Below are positions 30,038 to 34,423 of a stretch of DNA of 64,000 bases, piece after piece. The DNA comes from an uncultured Verrucomicrobiae bacterium (GTDB taxonomy: Bacteria > Chlamydiota > Chlamydiia > Chlamydiales > Rhabdochlamydiaceae), in contig CAWFUG010000009.1 of the NCBI GenBank assembly GCA_963818965.1, forward strand, positions 416,001 through 480,000. Direction: 5' to 3'. Below the pieces are notes generated by a model. The model saw nothing but the letters and a program-made list of their open reading frames with translations. It had not been told where the DNA came from and ran no database searches. Each line of letters begins with the position of its first letter. The first letter of the stretch is position 1. A program made the position numbers and the translations under genes.

Positions 30038-32254
30038 ATGAATTCTGTTTTCTTTTCTGATCACACTTTTGTAACGCATCTATTCAGCATTTTTCAGGAA
30101 GATGCGCGACATATGCAGGGCACCGATGCTGCTGGACTGCTCGAAATCGAGCGTCTGAAAAATTGCTCGCAGGTGTGTGAATTGTGGCGCAAATACGCAC
30201 TGGAGCTCTCTTTAGAAGTAAAGGTCCAAGGGACCCGATTCATCCCTATCGCCGATTATACTCCTCGACTCTATGCTGTAGAATATGAGCGTTTTGATTT
30301 GCTCCCCTTTATCGATCGATTAGAGCATGGTTTTACGCTAAAAATGGCCAAAATGAAGCTGAGTGCATTGCATCGGTACGAGATCGATGGGCATTATAAA
30401 GTAGACCAAATCACATTTAATCCCGCCGTAGACCACGTCACGCATCACCACTACTTAGCTCAATGGCTTTATCAGTCTCTGCATCTCTTTTTTTATCACT
30501 TCCCCGTCGACGAAACATGGAATGCTTCCTGTAGAGATAAGGCTTTGCGTGCAGTGAATGATTTTCGTGAGAACAGTTTCTACTGTACCACTTGTTCTGA
30601 GAGTTTTCGAGAATGTAAGCTCGGAGAGGTTCAGAAGGTTTTTGGGAACAAGGCAATCATGTGCGTAGACAGTGCCAGTCAAGTGTGTGGGAATACCCAT
30701 TGGGTGAATTTCCTTATTTATGGAAATCAAATCGCCCTTGCAAACCGGGGGAAAAACTCAGATGATTTACCCGGGGCGTGTATCTATTCCCTGTCAGAGG
30801 TCGATCCTTCAATGCCCATGAATCAATTAATCGATTTTTTTCAATATGTCGAGCCAGACGTTCATCTAAAGCTATCTCATCAAAGGAGTGGCTCTTGTTC
30901 GCGCACTAGTTTTGAGGGAGATTTTCTCAGCCTCATTTTTTTCATTCTAGAGGAGGAACATGCTTTACACGGATTGAAAGACAATAAGACCATCTACCGG
31001 GTTTTCAATGCATGGAGACAAGCGGATCATTCTCAGGGATTATATGAAATCATGCATGAGGATCTGTCGATAAATTATGATCCTCATCTGCTCGTTCGCG
31101 TGCTTGCAGCATTTAATGGATCCCCAGAAGAGGTAGAAACATTTTACGATTTTCTAAGGGATACAAAACAAGTCGATTGGGATTTGATCAATAAAACGGA
31201 AGATACGGCGGGGAAGGTTCCTGTCAATTACATCCCGCTTGAGGATTTTCCTAAGAAAGAGAGGCTTTTTGCTCGAGAACTCATAGCTGCTTATCGCAAT
31301 CAAGCTTTGAAGGAGATTTGGAGAGCCTGCCATTCTCTCTTTGCAAAGAGAGCTGCACCTAAGGTAAACGCTTCCATCGATGAAATTAGGGCCTTTTTTC
31401 TCGATCTGAACAACGCACCTTTATTCGATCGGTGTAGGACCCTCACATTAGCGGGATCTGAGTTAAAGGAGCTGCCTCAAGAGGAAATGAGGATTTTACG
31501 AAAGGTAGATAAGCTGAATCTTTCTTATAATGCATTTAGCCATTTTCCAAAATGGGAGTTTTCCAATTTAAAATGGTTAAATATGGATGTGAATTTGATC
31601 GAGAGCTTTGAAGGGTTTCAAAACGACTCTATTGAGCATCTGTCTGCTAATGGGAATACGATTTCTGTTGTTTCAGATCTAGTTTTTTTAAATCTAAAAA
31701 TTCTCAGTCTTAAAAGGAATGGGTTGTCGGATTTCTCAAATATGAACCTGCCTAATTTAATCATTTTGAATCTTCGTTCTAATGAGATTGAGAAAATTGA
31801 AAATTGTTTTTTTCCAAAACTGAAGAAGCTCTCTTTGGATGAGAATCTGTTAACCGAGATTCCCGATTCTATCCGCAATCTCTCTGAATTGGAAATACTC
31901 TCGCTGTCTGAAAATGATATTTCTGAAGTCAATGGCTTGAACTTTCCCAATTTGTCTTGGTGGGATCTTTCAGCAAATCAACTGACTGCAGTTCCCGATC
32001 TAAAGCTGCGCAACTTAAAGTACTGGGATTTAGGAAGCAATCGATTGCGTTCGGTGCCCAACTTTACAGGTCTTGAAAATTTGATCGAATTGAATCTATC
32101 TCTGAATGAGATCCAATCAGTACCCGATTTTAAAGACCTGGCTCGATTAAGATCCCTGTCGCTCAGCTGCAACAGGCTCAGAGAAAAGCCCGTCTTCACA
32201 CGCCTACACCCCACCATGACCATCGATCTGACTAGCAACCCGTTCAAAAGATAA
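30038..32254 (+). CDS. Leucine-rich repeat protein with uncharacterised N-terminal domain (candidate effector)
   Basis: About 12 C-terminal LxxLxLxxN repeats; N-terminal HWV...NRG...QRSGSC. Confidence 0.85.
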   Translation: MNSVFFSDHTFVTHLFSIFQEDARHMQGTDAAGLLEIERLKNCSQVCELWRKYALELSLEVKVQGTRFIPIADYTPRLYAVEYERFDLLPFIDRLEHGFTLKMAKMKLSALHRYEIDGHYKVDQITFNPAVDHVTHHHYLAQWLYQSLHLFFYHFPVDETWNASCRDKALRAVNDFRENSFYCTTCSESFRECKLGEVQKVFGNKAIMCVDSASQVCGNTHWVNFLIYGNQIALANRGKNSDDLPGACIYSLSEVDPSMPMNQLIDFFQYVEPDVHLKLSHQRSGSCSRTSFEGDFLSLIFFILEEEHALHGLKDNKTIYRVFNAWRQADHSQGLYEIMHEDLSINYDPHLLVRVLAAFNGSPEEVETFYDFLRDTKQVDWDLINKTEDTAGKVPVNYIPLEDFPKKERLFARELIAAYRNQALKEIWRACHSLFAKRAAPKVNASIDEIRAFFLDLNNAPLFDRCRTLTLAGSELKELPQEEMRILRKVDKLNLSYNAFSHFPKWEFSNLKWLNMDVNLIESFEGFQNDSIEHLSANGNTISVVSDLVFLNLKILSLKRNGLSDFSNMNLPNLIILNLRSNEIEKIENCFFPKLKKLSLDENLLTEIPDSIRNLSELEILSLSENDISEVNGLNFPNLSWWDLSANQLTAVPDLKLRNLKYWDLGSNRLRSVPNFTGLENLIELNLSLNEIQSVPDFKDLARLRSLSLSCNRLREKPVFTRLHPTMTIDLTSNPFKR

Positions 32255-32574
32255 GTCTTAATACGAAGCCTTGTAAAAAACGAACTCAGTGCTTTTGTTT
32301 TCCTTTAATGAAGTGTATAGAATTTCTTCATCTTTTCCTTTTGGGATTTTTATTACTCCGAAATTAGGATCAAAAAAGAAATTTTGTCCTTTGTTTTTGA
32401 AGTAGACGCAAGTATGGCCTTCATCTTTTTTTGGATCGCCCTGCTTGAAAATATAGAATCCATTTGGTTGGATTTTGCTTTGTTGCTGAAATTCACCACA
32501 GAGCCTTGGGAAGGGGGGCGTCTCGGTCCTTAATTTTATACTCTACCCCTTCCATCATCTAGATGTAACTTGGG

Positions 32575-32760
32575 TCAAAATCGGATCCAATCTATAATTC
32601 CTCCTCGTAATGTAGAGGCCGAGCTATCATTGGCGCTTGTAAGCCCGGCACAGAGAATGGCACGCAAAAGGTCACGTAAGCATCGCTGGTGAGATCGTAA
32701 GATCATCCCGTTTAGGAGAATGTTGGCTTAACACCTTTTGCACATTGCACTTAACCCAAG
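32575..32760 (+). ncRNA. Putative IS110 bridge RNA (left non-coding end); boundaries approximate
   Basis: CACAGAG-AATG (32649) matches target flank plus core; TTAGGAG-AATG (32712) matches IS right end plus core; 9-bp stem 32664-72/32733-41; GATC-GTAA-GATC hairpin. Confidence 0.65.
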
Positions 32761-32768
32761 GAATTTTC

Positions 32769-34126
32769 ATGAACACCGAAATCGTGAATCAATCATCATC
32801 CATTAAAATTATCAATCCGAACGCTGCAGGAATAGACATAGGGGCTTCCTCCCATTTCGTTGCAGTGCCCGAAAACAGAAGTAAAGAGTTTGTTAAAGAA
32901 TTTGGGTGCTTTACCCCAGATATTGAAAACATGATTACATGGTTAAGGGAATGCAAAATCAAAACAATAGTTATGGAATCGACTGGATCCTATTGGATAC
33001 CGGTCTTTGAAATGCTGGATCAAGCCGGATTTGAGGTAAAATTGGTAGATGCCCACCATGTAAAGAATGTAAGAGGACGCAAGTCAGATGTAATAGACTG
33101 TCAGTGGCTTCAACAATTGCACACCCACGGCCTACTCTCGGCAGCTTTCCGTCCAGAAAATGAGATAGTAGAGCTAAGAAGTTTCCTCAGACAAAGGTCC
33201 ATGCTCATTGAAACAGCCTCTATGCATATCCAACACATGCAAAAGGCACTCGTTCAAATGAACCTACACCTGAACAATGTGATAAGTGACATCACTGGAG
33301 CAACAGGTATAGCTATAATAAGAGCGATTGTGTCAGGGGAAAGAAACCTCGATAATTTGGCAAAACTAAGAGACCCTCGGTGTAAACAACCTGAATCTGT
33401 AATCAGGAAATCTCTTCAAGGCAACTACCGACCAGAACACCTATTTGCCTTAAAACAAGCCCTTGAAGCCTACGACTTTTTCCAAAAAAAAATCGCCGAA
33501 TGCGACAACGAGATAAAAAAAAACTCGAAGTGCTCTCCCCAATAAAAGAGACACCCTCACTGACAAAAAAGCCAAAAAAGCTAAAAAAATACGAATACGC
33601 TTTTAATGTAGCCGACCACCTAAAACAGCTCATAGGAACGGACCTAACAACGGTACCCGGGATAGACGTAAGCACTGCTCTGAAGTTAATCTCGGAAATA
33701 GGAACAAATATAAGAAAATGGCCAACAGAAAAACACTTCTGTGCCTGGCTAGGATTATGTCCTGGCACCAGAATATCCGGAGGAAGGCGAATTAGTAGCC
33801 ACACCTCGCATTGTACCAATAAGGCAGCGATTGCATTGAGAATGGCAGCAAGCTCATTATACAAAAGCAAAACAGCACTTGGAGCTCACTTAAGACGCAT
33901 GAAAGCACGTATGGGTCCTGTTGAAGCAGTGACGGCAACAGCCCACAAAATGGCAAGGGCCCTTTATCAGATGATACTGCGAAAAGAAGACTTTAGAGAA
34001 GCTGGCTCAGACTTTTACGATAAACTACACCAAGACAAAACACTGAAATTTTTGAAGAAGAGAGCCGCCTCCATGGGATATGTCCTAACTGAAATGGAAA
34101 AAATGAAAAGCGCTGTGCACCAATAA
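32769..34126 (+). CDS. IS110 transposase/recombinase, split by a frameshift in an A9 run (33515-33523)
   Basis: GIDIG, MESTG, KSDVID (DEDD) in ORF1; VPGID...LGLCPGTRISGG (catalytic Ser), ATAHKMAR in ORF2. Confidence 0.92.
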
Positions 34127-34423
34127 CTTAGCTTGAAGTTACTTAGGAGAGGGGAAACCACAGAGAGGAAATTCATATTAAAAAGTTTCCTCTCTGTGGT
34201 TTTTCCTCTCTGTGGTGAAATTGCATCTATTCAGAATGGAATAATGGGGAGCTAGATTAGCTCCTCATGGATGATGCAACAACGCCGAGACCGTCTCTAA
34301 TCGCTTGACTTCTTTACCTCGCTTCGCATAAAAGTGGGTATGAACCTATCCTTATAAAAAATTTCAGTCGATTTTCGGGGATGGTTTTGTAGCACTTTTG
34401 TTTTTGCGGGGGCTTTAAAGTTT

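What the first reader, a model, noticed from the sequence alone, without database searches (positions are those of the whole stretch)
32575..32760. Candidate bridge RNA with visible target and donor guides
The 265-bp non-coding left end contains two parallel modules: CAT..hairpin(GCTTGTAAGC)..CACAGAG-AATG and CAT..hairpin(GATCGTAAGATC)..TTAGGAG-AATG. CACAGAG (32649-55) equals the left target flank plus core. TTAGGAG (32712-18) equals the IS right end plus core. The donor module is enclosed by a perfect 9-bp stem (GCAAAAGGT/ACCTTTTGC). This fits RNA-guided IS110 recombination. However, the guides lie 3' of the internal hairpins and I could not find clear right-hand guides. CCCAAGG at 32755 complements the IS left end but overlaps the RBS. 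The architecture may therefore differ from IS621 and could be a new programmable recombinase scaffold.
Basis: partly seen in the sequence, partly recalled or inferred. Interest (0 to 1): 0.9.

Follow-up and report, generated by a model that had tools for sequence, protein, structure and literature searches.

The report
Bridge RNA of an IS110-family element
The non-coding left end of this jumping gene encodes a two-loop guide ("bridge") RNA whose short guide stretches really do match its insertion site and its own right end, a known kind of RNA-guided recombination system in an unusual layout.

Summary
The window holds a 1,646-bp IS110-family element (32504-34149) inserted in a REP-like palindrome. 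Its left end encodes a two-loop RNA (about 32607-32748). The structure is backed by compensatory changes in 25 of 31 pairs across 35 homologues.

CACAGAG (32649-55) and TTAGGAG (32712-18) sit at fixed positions 3' of each inner hairpin. In homologues with other targets these positions change with the left flank and the right end: exact 7-mer matches in 32 of 48 and 32 of 42 loci, against 1-2% for swapped guides.

The RNA geometry is that of IS621, but the DNA polarity is reversed. This is the guide order reported for IS1111-type seekRNAs, although here the RNA lies upstream of the recombinase gene. Chlamydial relatives carry the same RNA downstream of the gene.

CCCAAGG (32755) is only the ribosome-binding site. 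The missing donor guide reads an internal left-end site (32554-59) beside a covarying sub-terminal inverted repeat. No target guide for the right flank is visible in this copy. The A9 frameshift is conserved in relatives and is probably programmed.

No RNA data exist. This is a known mechanism in a variant layout. The scan has met IS110 bridge RNAs before on other DNA.

The parts
32497..32503 (+). Left target half plus core (CACAGAG) in the flanking REP-like repeat
   Evidence: Filled and empty repeat copies compared. Identical to the target guide at 32649-55.
32504..34149 (+). IS110-family insertion sequence, 1,646 bp, counting one copy of the AG core at its right end
   Evidence: Two 100% identical copies in the genome sit in different copies of the repeat. 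Junctions come from empty sites. Pfam PF01548 and PF02371 match.
32509..32553 (+). Left-end hairpin (GGAAGGGG 32509-16 / CCCCTTCC 32546-53) between the left terminus and the internal donor site
   Evidence: Read from the sequence. A hairpin stands at the same place in relatives. A terminator-like call falls at 32514-31.
32554..32559 (+). Internal left-end site X (ATCATC), matched in sense by the donor-loop 5' guide
   Evidence: Fixed-register identity across the family. It is 5 of 6 in the window, 6 of 6 in L060 and L066, and at least 5 of 7 in 20 of 41 loci against 3.3% for swapped pairs. It also holds in relatives with the RNA downstream of the gene.
32565..32571 (+). Left copy of the sub-terminal inverted repeat (GTAACTT)
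   Evidence: It is the reverse complement of 34136-42. Such a repeat is found with at most 1 mismatch in 33 of 33 loci (16 exact), against 11.9% for swapped pairs.
32570..32598 (+). Putative internal promoter: -35 TTGGGT (32570-75), 17-nt spacer, -10 TATAAT (32593-98)
   Evidence: Read from the sequence. A -10-like hexamer at a similar distance is seen in most relatives. The tool's stricter scan did not call it. This is inferred, not shown.
32607..32748 (+). Bridge RNA core, from the outer helix P1 5' strand (GUAAUGU 32607-13) to its 3' strand (ACAUUGC 32742-48)
   Evidence: Consensus structure of 35 homologues: 91.2% of cells paired against 77.3% shuffled and about 45% slid; 25 of 31 pairs carry compensatory changes. 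The covariance model R1 finds it upstream of the recombinase gene in independent loci. P1 of the window row was placed by hand, because the chlamydial rows are offset in the alignment.
32618..32661 (+). Target-binding loop. Parts: P2 (GCCG 32618-21 / UGGC 32658-61); 5' side 32622-30; inner hairpin 32631-47; linker G 32648; guide CACAGAG 32649-55; handshake position AA 32656-57
   Evidence: In the family the handshake position equals the first two left-end bases in 16 of 36 cases (shuffled 3.6 +/- 1.7). In the window it does not (AA against CC).
32664..32741 (+). Donor-binding loop. Parts: P3 (32664-72 / 32733-41); 5' guide AGCATC 32679-84; inner hairpin 32687-32710 with a GUAA loop; linker U 32711; guide TTAGGAG 32712-18; handshake position AA 32719-20
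32755..32761 (+). CCCAAGG: ribosome-binding region, not a guide
   Evidence: It lies 8 nt before the ATG at 32769. It is replaced by AGGAGG (L060) and AAGGGG (L066) while their left-end starts differ, so there is no covariation.
32769..33545 (+). Recombinase ORF1 (RuvC-like DEDD domain)
   Evidence: PF01548 E 4.8e-21. It aligns weakly to the IS621 recombinase, including the MESTG and SDVID catalytic stretches (E 0.0017).
33515..33523 (+). A9 run: site of the -1 frame change between ORF1 and ORF2
   Evidence: The same A9 and the same -1 change occur in L066, L060, three copies in genome G245, and L105.
33500..34126 (+). Recombinase ORF2 (Tnp domain with the GLCPGTRISG serine motif)
   Evidence: PF02371 E 9.5e-13. 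Homology to intact 446-457-aa relatives resumes just after the A9 run.
34136..34142 (+). Right copy of the sub-terminal inverted repeat (AAGTTAC)
34143..34149 (+). Right end (TTAGG) plus core (AG), identical to the donor guide at 32712-18
34150..34250 (+). Right target half: the rest of the nested-palindrome repeat
   Evidence: The target motif occurs 225 times in the genome and 0 times in the reversed-pattern control.

Best explanation
The 265-nt left end of an IS110-family insertion sequence encodes a bridge RNA of about 140 nt (about 32607-32748).

Anatomy. An outer helix (P1) encloses two internal loops, each with its own inner hairpin. In the first loop, the 7 nt that start two bases after the hairpin (CACAGAG) are identical to the DNA left of the insertion point plus the AG core. 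[quoted passage not shown] The equivalent 7 nt of the second loop (TTAGGAG) are identical to the element's right end plus core.

Likely mechanism. A DEDD/serine recombinase, made from two reading frames through a -1 shift at an A9 run, would bind this RNA. It would use it to bring the circularised element and a CACAGAG site in the host's REP-like repeat together, then exchange strands at the core.

Relation to IS621. Guide, linker, hairpin and handshake positions correspond to those reported for IS621. [quoted passage not shown] This is the order reported for IS1111-type seekRNAs.

Second donor guide. The donor loop's 5' side (AGCATC, 32679-84) does not read the left terminus. It matches an internal left-end site (ATCATC, 32554-59), which lies beyond a hairpin and 5 nt before a sub-terminal inverted repeat.

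Shown here: the anatomy, the covariation and the boundaries. Inferred: transcription, protein binding, catalysis and the frameshift mechanism.
For: Element and enzyme.
- Boundaries and target come from two identical copies plus empty sites.
- Both recombinase domains are present.

Structure.
- In 35 homologues, 91.2% of cells are paired, against 77.3% shuffled and 38-46% slid.
- 25 of 31 pairs carry compensatory changes.
- The model built from them finds the RNA next to the recombinase gene in 9 of 9 independent plasmid loci of 50-58% protein identity. It also finds it in 20 of 25 chlamydial loci at E below 1e-16.

Guides.
- There are 29 distinct target 7-mers and 18 distinct donor 7-mers.
- Exact matches to the left flank occur in 32 of 48 loci, and to the right end in 32 of 42. 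Swapped guides match in 11 of 1152 and 7 of 372.
- The 2 nt after the target guide equal the first two left-end bases in 16 of 36 loci (shuffled 3.6 +/- 1.7). This is the position of the IS621 handshake guide as the paper describes it.
- The 5' side of the target loop is complementary to the right flank in a subset. Watson-Crick runs of at least 5 occur in 8 of 25 loci against 6.8% in controls. Exact 6-mers occur in 4 of 19 loci against 0.019 per swapped pair.
- The donor 5' guide matches the internal left-end site with per-position identity of 0.71-0.80, against 0.26-0.47 expected. At least 5 of 7 positions match in 20 of 41 loci, against 3.3% swapped. The same holds in relatives with the RNA downstream of the gene.

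Inverted repeat: 33 of 33 loci at 1 mismatch or fewer, against 11.9% swapped.

Polarity comparison rests on passages read in Durrant 2024 and Hiraizumi 2024 and Siddiquee 2024.

Frameshift: the same A9 run and -1 shift occur in four further chlamydial elements. One of them has three copies at different sites and no other defect.
Against: - No RNA data exist: no RNA run is listed for this sequence.
- Folding energy is no better than shuffled sequence.
- Rfam has no matching family.
- In the window's own copy the target loop's 5' side shows only 2 complementary bases to either version of the right flank.
- The window's handshake bases (AA) do not match the left-end start (CC).
- The donor 5' guide matches its site at 5 of 6 positions, not 6 of 6.
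- The register of the 5'-side pairing with the right flank varies between subfamilies by up to 3 nt.
- The donor 5' guide is identical to, not complementary to, the top strand of its site. Both donor guides would then pair with the same DNA strand. This does not fit a simple mirror image of IS621 and I cannot explain it.
- Only 2 copies exist although the target motif occurs 225 times.
- The recombinase cannot be made without recoding.
- Many homologues share descent, so locus counts overstate the number of independent events.
Confidence: 0.88

Rival explanations
1. The structured left end is only a 5' leader of the recombinase mRNA (translation control or stability), and the two 7-mers match the flanks by chance.
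For: Folding energy is not better than shuffled sequence. No RNA data exist. The element ends in GAG on both sides, which makes short matches easier.
Against: The same columns change with the flanks in 29 and 18 distinct versions. Exact matches occur in 32 of 48 and 32 of 42 loci, against 1-2% for swapped guides. In relatives the same RNA lies downstream of the gene, where it cannot be a 5' leader.
Confidence: 0.03
2. It is an ordinary IS621-type bridge RNA with canonical polarity. The apparent reversal comes from a wrongly drawn secondary structure or wrongly placed element ends.
For: The window row is offset in the P1 part of the alignment, so that helix was placed by hand. I saw no figure of the published structures, only text. 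I could not fetch an IS621 sequence to align directly.
Against: The inner hairpins that place the guides on the 3' side are the best-supported helices: 99.4% and 95.5% of cells paired, with compensatory changes. The ends are fixed by empty sites and by multi-copy relatives in different flanks. [quoted passage not shown] Siddiquee et al. describe both orders.
Confidence: 0.05
3. The RNA gene is real, but this element is a dead relic. The frameshift is a plain inactivating mutation, and the two copies arose by something other than its own transposition.
For: The recombinase is split into two frames. Only 2 copies exist against 225 target motifs. L066 and L060 carry further frameshifts. The window's handshake position and 5' target guide do not match its site.
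Against: The two copies are 100% identical and sit in different repeat copies with exact junctions. The same A9 run and -1 shift are kept at about 75% protein identity. They occur in a three-copy element whose only interruption is this shift. The catalytic motifs are intact.
Confidence: 0.15

Closest known systems
IS621 / IS622 / ISPpu10 bridge RNAs (IS110 group; Durrant et al. 2024 PMC11208160, Hiraizumi et al. 2024 PMC11208158, ISPpu10 preprint 10.64898/2026.03.19.712850)
   Same: - The RNA is encoded in the left end, upstream of a DEDD plus Tnp recombinase.
- It has two internal loops, each with an inner hairpin.
- The guide on the 3' side starts two bases after the hairpin, covers 5 nt plus a 2-nt core, and is followed by a 2-nt handshake position.
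- The core is AG on the top strand, which is CT on the other strand.
- The target is a REP-like palindrome, as for IS621 and ISPpu10.
   Different: - The polarity is reversed. Here the 3' side is identical to the left target or right end plus core. In IS621 that role belongs to the 5' side, according to the passages read.
- One outer helix encloses both loops.
- The donor 5' guide reads a site 51 nt inside the left end (22-29 nt in relatives), next to a 7-nt inverted repeat, and not the terminus.
[quoted passage not shown]
- The recombinase is about 466 aa and only faintly similar to IS621 (E 0.0017).
IS1111-type seekRNAs (ISEc11, ISKpn4, ISPa11; Siddiquee et al. 2024, PMC11187229)
   Same: - The guide order is the same: the segment complementary to the top strand comes first and the bottom-strand segment second.
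- Sub-terminal inverted repeats are present.
- Relatives at 53-57% protein identity carry the same RNA downstream of the gene, as IS1111 elements do.
   Different: - In the window the RNA is upstream of the gene.
- The inverted repeat is 7 nt, not 11-13.
- It lies 7 bp from the right end and 61 bp from the left end, not 3 and 7 bp.
- The recombinase is about 466 aa, not 330-350 (figures).
ISEc21 seekRNA (IS110 type; Siddiquee et al. 2024)
   Same: The non-coding region lies upstream, and a short RNA carries segments for both target strands.
   Different: ISEc21 has the bottom-strand match 5' of the top-strand match. Here the order is the opposite.

Membership tests
IS110-family bridge RNA system | Non-coding RNA gene inside the element, next to a recombinase with DEDD (PF01548) and Tnp (PF02371) domains | tested here: met
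   (E 4.8e-21 and 9.5e-13). The RNA lies directly upstream of the gene.
IS110-family bridge RNA system | Two internal loops, each closed by a stem and holding an inner hairpin, conserved by covariation | tested here: met
   5 helices, 25 of 31 pairs with compensatory change, 91.2% of cells paired.
IS110-family bridge RNA system | One loop covaries with the target flank and the other with the element's own end, both including the core | tested here: met
   exact matches in 32 of 48 and 32 of 42 loci, against 11 of 1152 and 7 of 372 for swapped guides.
IS110-family bridge RNA system | A second guide in each loop for the other half-site | tested here: inconclusive
   Target loop: complementarity to the right flank appears in a subset only, with a shifting register, and is absent in the window copy. 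Donor loop: the 5' side covaries with an internal left-end site in sense orientation, not with the terminus.
IS110-family bridge RNA system | The RNA is transcribed and bound by the recombinase, and guide changes redirect recombination | not testable with these tools
   No RNA run is listed.
IS621-type (IS110 group) arrangement | [quoted passage not shown] | tested here: not met
   Here the 3' side is identical to the left half plus core. The IS621 rule is taken from text read.
IS621-type (IS110 group) arrangement | [quoted passage not shown] | tested here: inconclusive
   By eye I found no such pair of hexamers across the joined ends. A plausible promoter lies inside the left end instead. The tool's scan of 32400-32900 called none.
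IS1111 group | Sub-terminal inverted repeats of 11-13 bp, with terminal extensions of 7 bp on the left and 3 bp on the right | tested here: not met
   There is a 7-nt repeat, 61 bp from the left end and 7 bp from the right end.
IS1111 group | The long non-coding region and guide RNA lie downstream of the recombinase gene | tested here: not met
   The RNA is upstream in the window. It is downstream in 9 related chlamydial loci.
IS1111 group | The top-strand-complementary segment lies 5' of the bottom-strand-complementary segment | tested here: met
   compared.

The most novel reading that the evidence does not exclude
This recombinase clade may be a third layout class linking the IS110 and IS1111 groups. 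It has IS1111-like guide polarity and inverted repeats, but members carry the RNA either upstream or downstream of the gene.

Its donor may be recognised as a split site. The donor loop would read the right terminus (5 nt plus core) and a left-end segment 22-51 nt inside the element. Both lie just outside the two inverted-repeat copies, and both would pair on the same DNA strand.

That would imply that the donor is bound in a folded form. The left-end hairpin could be looped out, or the two repeats could be brought together so that the RNA hairpin and a DNA stem form a four-way junction. This differs from the short linear duplex seen for IS621. Standard surveys that look only about 25 nt either side of the core would miss the second donor guide. 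In addition, recombinase supply would be set by a conserved A9 recoding site.
Probability: 0.3. Interest if true: 0.65.

Novelty: new variant of a known kind. Interest (0 to 1): 0.45.

Why it matters
Bridge RNA recombinases are being developed as programmable genome-writing tools, so layout rules matter for finding and reprogramming new ones. This family shows three things.

- Guide polarity is not tied to where the RNA gene sits in the element.
- The same RNA can lie on either side of the recombinase gene within one protein clade.
- One of the four guides can read a site well inside the element, next to an inverted repeat.

If the last point holds, donor design for such orthologues needs more than the roughly 14 bp used for IS621, and surveys centred on the core under-count guide length. 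The conserved A9 shift would be the first hint I have seen of programmed recoding in this transposase family; that statement rests on my own recall, not on a literature search. For the host genome itself the element is an ordinary low-copy insertion sequence.

Tried and rejected
- Rfam scan of 32400-34300 at E up to 10. It gave no bridge RNA family. The only hits were sub-threshold microRNA-like matches to the palindromic repeat at 34134-34223.
- Single-sequence folding. The z-scores were not significant.
- A first MAFFT run timed out. A second included a truncated locus by mistake and was unusable.
- CCCAAGG as a right donor guide. Rejected, because it shows no conservation or covariation.
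- Search for a guide complementary to the left terminus, in the donor loop's 5' region, in its distal 3' region and in the target loop. No signal above swapped controls.
- Sense matches of the target loop's 5' side anywhere within 60 nt of the junction: none.
- Public sequencing runs. No RNA holder is listed. Laying four DNA runs gave only short contig pieces, with no joint, no empty site and no circle junction.
- Phylogenetic placement against IS1111 and IS621 proteins. Not done, because I had no sequences of named IS1111 members, and the PDB hit to IS621 is too weak.
- Figures and supplements of the cited papers were not seen. Extended Data Fig. 10 of Durrant 2024, Supplementary Fig. 2 of Siddiquee 2024 and Fig. 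S12 of the 2026 preprint 10.64898/2026.10.21.760802 may already show this layout.
- My literature searches and the passages read contain no statement of an upstream RNA with reversed polarity or of an internal donor site. This is not proof that none is in print.
- Earlier notes of this scan. None lie near this place and none resemble this sequence.

Full report
**What is in the window.** Positions 32504-34149 are an insertion sequence of 1,646 bp. It encodes a recombinase in two overlapping frames (32769-33545 and 33500-34126). These match the two Pfam domains of IS110-family enzymes: PF01548 at E 4.8e-21 and PF02371 at E 9.5e-13.

The genome, a 2.24-Mb assembly in 12 contigs, holds a second, 100% identical copy. 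Both copies sit at the same point of a nested-palindrome repeat of about 100 bp. More than 25 empty copies of that repeat were read. Empty sites read ..CACCACAGAG|ATGGAAAACC.. or ..|AGGGGAAACC. Filled sites read ..CACCACAGAG|CCTTGGG...TTACTTAGGAG|A(G/T)GG...

The left flank and the right end share the suffix GAG. The exchange point therefore lies within those three bases. Across the family the conserved part is AG (AA in some members), so I call AG the core. A 23-nt version of the target motif occurs 225 times in the genome and never in the reversed-pattern control.

**The observation.** The family-wide test of chance is given under 'The guides' below.

**Related elements.** A search of one genome per species returned 49 loci with 42-76% protein identity, mostly Acidobacteriota, plus Chlamydiota, Planctomycetota, Bacteroidota and others. 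A tblastn search of plasmids found 403 records, and 13 stretches were fetched. A search of 301 genomes of the window's phylum found the protein in 18 of them.

**Structure.** I aligned 35 non-identical upstream regions. The consensus fold has five helices:
- an outer helix P1;
- a helix P2 that closes a first internal loop with an inner hairpin;
- a helix P3 that closes a second internal loop with its own inner hairpin.

Counted on the alignment, 91.2% of cells form pairs. This compares with 77.3% after shuffling (0 of 500 shuffles reach it) and 38-46% when partners are slid by 1-3 columns. Compensatory changes occur in 25 of 31 pairs. These sequences are related, so the shuffle control is generous; the slide control is the fairer one.

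In the window, P1 is GUAAUGU 32607-13 with ACAUUGC 32742-48. I placed it by hand because the chlamydial rows are offset in that part of the alignment. The single-sequence fold predicts the same helix.

A covariance model built from the alignment was run on loci not used to build it.
- It found the RNA directly upstream of the gene in 9 of 9 plasmid loci of 50-58% identity (L080-L088).
- It matched weakly in an ISArsp3-family element (E 4e-5) and in a Bacillus thuringiensis element (E 1e-4).
- It did not match in two others, L089 and L092.

**The guides.** In both loops the inner hairpin ends in CCCG. One linker base follows, and then come seven variable bases ending in AG. Across 51 loci there are 29 different 7-mers in the first loop and 18 in the second.
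- The first-loop 7-mer occurs exactly in the 85-nt window where the left junction should lie in 32 of 48 usable loci (44 of 48 with at most one mismatch). Guides taken from other loci do so in 11 of 1152 trials.
- The second-loop 7-mer occurs exactly at the expected right end in 32 of 42 loci, against 7 of 372 for swapped guides.
- In multi-copy elements the matched point is where the flanks start to differ.

The two bases after the first-loop guide equal the first two bases of the left end in 16 of 36 non-redundant cases (shuffled 3.6 +/- 1.7). The equivalent bases of the second loop equal the first two bases of the right flank in 6 of 32 cases (shuffled 2.0 +/- 1.25). In the window these positions read AA and AA. 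The left end starts CC, so the first does not match. The right flank starts AG or AT, so the second matches at one base.

**Comparison with IS621.** I read passages of Durrant et al. 2024 and Hiraizumi et al. 2024, but no figures. [quoted passage not shown] In the present family the 3' side has the same spacing: two bases after the hairpin, 5 nt plus core, then a handshake position. However, it is identical to the left half plus core, and its handshake position matches the left-end start. The RNA geometry is therefore conserved, and the DNA is read in the opposite polarity relative to the recombinase gene. On the other strand the core reads CT, as in IS621.

Siddiquee et al. 2024 state that in IS1111-type seekRNAs the segment complementary to the top strand precedes the one complementary to the bottom strand. 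In the IS110-type ISEc21 the order is reversed. They also state that the long non-coding region is usually downstream in IS1111 and upstream in IS110 types (passages read). The window's RNA has the IS1111 order but the IS110 position.

**Relatives with the RNA on the other side of the gene.** Among chlamydial relatives the model finds the RNA in two positions.
- Upstream of the gene in 11 loci, from six genomes.
- Downstream of the gene in 9 loci, from six genomes.

In the downstream cases the junctions were confirmed by exact matches of both guides: the target guide at the left flank before a short left end, and the donor guide 46-186 nt after the RNA. Both layouts therefore occur within one protein clade. 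They differ only in where the joint of the circular form lies.

**The other two guides.** The 5' side of the target loop (9 nt, 32622-30 in the window) is complementary to the right flank in some subfamilies. Examples are 8 nt in L036 and 6-9 nt in L035, L043/L048, L051 and L082.
- Watson-Crick runs of at least 5 occur in 8 of 25 loci, against 6.8% of mismatched pairs. Runs of at least 6 occur in 4 of 25, against 1.7%.
- Exact 6-mers near the junction occur in 4 of 19 loci, against 0.019 per swapped pair.
- The register differs by up to 3 nt between subfamilies.
- The window's own copy shows only 2 complementary bases.

Three copies of a 76%-identical element in another genome share only CACAGAG on the left and have unrelated right flanks. 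In this subfamily the 7-nt left guide thus seems to carry most of the specificity.

For the donor loop I found no complementarity to the left terminus. Instead, the donor loop's 5' side, at 8 to 3 bases before the hairpin, is identical to a left-end segment lying 11 to 6 bases before an inverted repeat.
- Per-position identity is 0.71-0.80, against 0.26-0.47 expected.
- At least 5 of 7 positions match in 20 of 41 loci, against 3.3% for swapped pairs, with at least a dozen different sequences.
- In the window, AGCATC (32679-84) faces ATCATC (32554-59).
- The two closest relatives read AACATC/AACATC and AACATT/AACATT.
- The relation also holds in elements with the RNA downstream, where the site and the RNA gene are 1.6 kb apart: AACATC, AATATC, AATATC. 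Local duplication is therefore not the cause.

**Inverted repeat.** The 7 nt directly before the donor match at the right end (AAGTTAC, 34136-42) recur as a reverse complement inside the left end (GTAACTT, 32565-71). Such a repeat is found with at most one mismatch in 33 of 33 loci (16 exact), against 11.9% for swapped pairs. Its sequence varies between subfamilies: AGTTTC/GAAACT, GCGTTTC/GAAACGC, GACGTCA/TGACGT. The donor is therefore laid out in this order:
1. repeat;
2. 5 nt;
3. core;
4. joint;
5. 5-7 variable nt;
6. hairpin;
7. internal site;
8. 5 nt;
9. repeat.

Both donor guides are in sense with the top strand, so both would pair with the bottom strand. That does not fit a plain mirror image of IS621, and I leave it unexplained. 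The folded-donor idea is given as the most novel reading.

**Expression signals.** A -35/-10 pair (TTGGGT, 17 nt, TATAAT; 32570-98) ends 9 nt before P1. A -10-like hexamer stands at a similar distance in most relatives. The tool's stricter scan called no promoter. This part is inference only.

**The frameshift.** ORF1 homology to intact relatives of 446-457 aa ends at ..CDNEIKK, and ORF2 homology resumes just after the A9 run at 33515-23. A -1 shift there gives a product of about 466 aa. The same run and the same shift occur in L066 and L060, which carry further defects. They also occur in three copies at three different sites in another genome whose only interruption is this shift, and in L105. 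A 63%-identical element has one continuous frame of 479 aa. Catalytic motifs are present: GIDIG, MESTG, SDVID and the ISG serine. I read the shift as programmed, either ribosomal -1 frameshifting or transcriptional slippage. This is not shown.

**What is known already.** Bridge RNAs were described in 2024. Durrant et al. predicted them in 85.7% of catalogued IS110 elements and noted diverse structures. A 2026 preprint built 86 models covering 32,190 loci and says many deviate from IS621 (section read). Earlier notes of this scan report IS110 bridge RNAs in at least 13 other genomes, some 'arranged differently'. The mechanism is therefore known.

In the texts I could read I did not find three things: an upstream RNA with reversed polarity, both gene orders within one clade, and a donor guide for an internal site beside an inverted repeat. 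Figures and supplements that I could not see may show them.

**Verdict.**
- The finding is a real bridge RNA in a variant layout.

Noticed in passing
window 34150-34250, and about 225 sites genome-wide (for example L003-L030): A REP-like nested-palindrome repeat of about 100 bp, with the core ..CACCACAGAG A(T/G)GG(A/G)AAACCACAGAGAGGAAA..loop..TTTCCTCTCTGTGG.. and two kinds of outer arm. The 23-nt target motif occurs 110 times forward and 115 times reverse, against 0 in the control. It gives sub-threshold microRNA-like Rfam hits.
   Followed up: partly
window 33515-33523; L096/L114/L121 2226-2234; L066 3233; L060 3224; L105 2290: A conserved A9 run at which the recombinase frame changes by -1 in five related chlamydial elements. 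One of them is a three-copy element with no other defect. This looks like programmed recoding in an IS110-family transposase.
   Followed up: partly
window 33484-33492: A second A9 run lies 22 nt upstream of the shift site, inside ORF1 (..FFQKKIAE..). It is not conserved in L066 or L060.
   Followed up: no
L042, L045, L059, L081 (left junctions): Some relatives sit directly after the right end of a sibling element. Their target guide equals, or nearly equals, a sibling's donor guide (for example TTAGGAG or TAAGGAG), which gives tandem arrays.
   Followed up: no
L080 (Citrobacter freundii plasmid) and 60 other Citrobacter records, plus Enterobacter and Klebsiella plasmids: A 55%-identical family member with the same RNA, an A-rich target guide (AAAAAAA) and an AA core is common on enterobacterial plasmids, where it lies among other insertion sequences.
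   Followed up: partly
L100-L103, L116, L117, L123, L098, L108: Chlamydial relatives carry the same bridge RNA downstream of the recombinase gene, 46-186 nt from the right end. Their left end of about 175 nt holds the internal donor site and the inverted repeat.
   Followed up: yes
window 30038-32254: A 738-aa ORF just upstream of the element has a C-terminal run of leucine-rich-repeat-like units (..LSLSENDISEVNGLNFPNLSWWDLSANQL..). This was judged by eye from the translation only.
   Followed up: no
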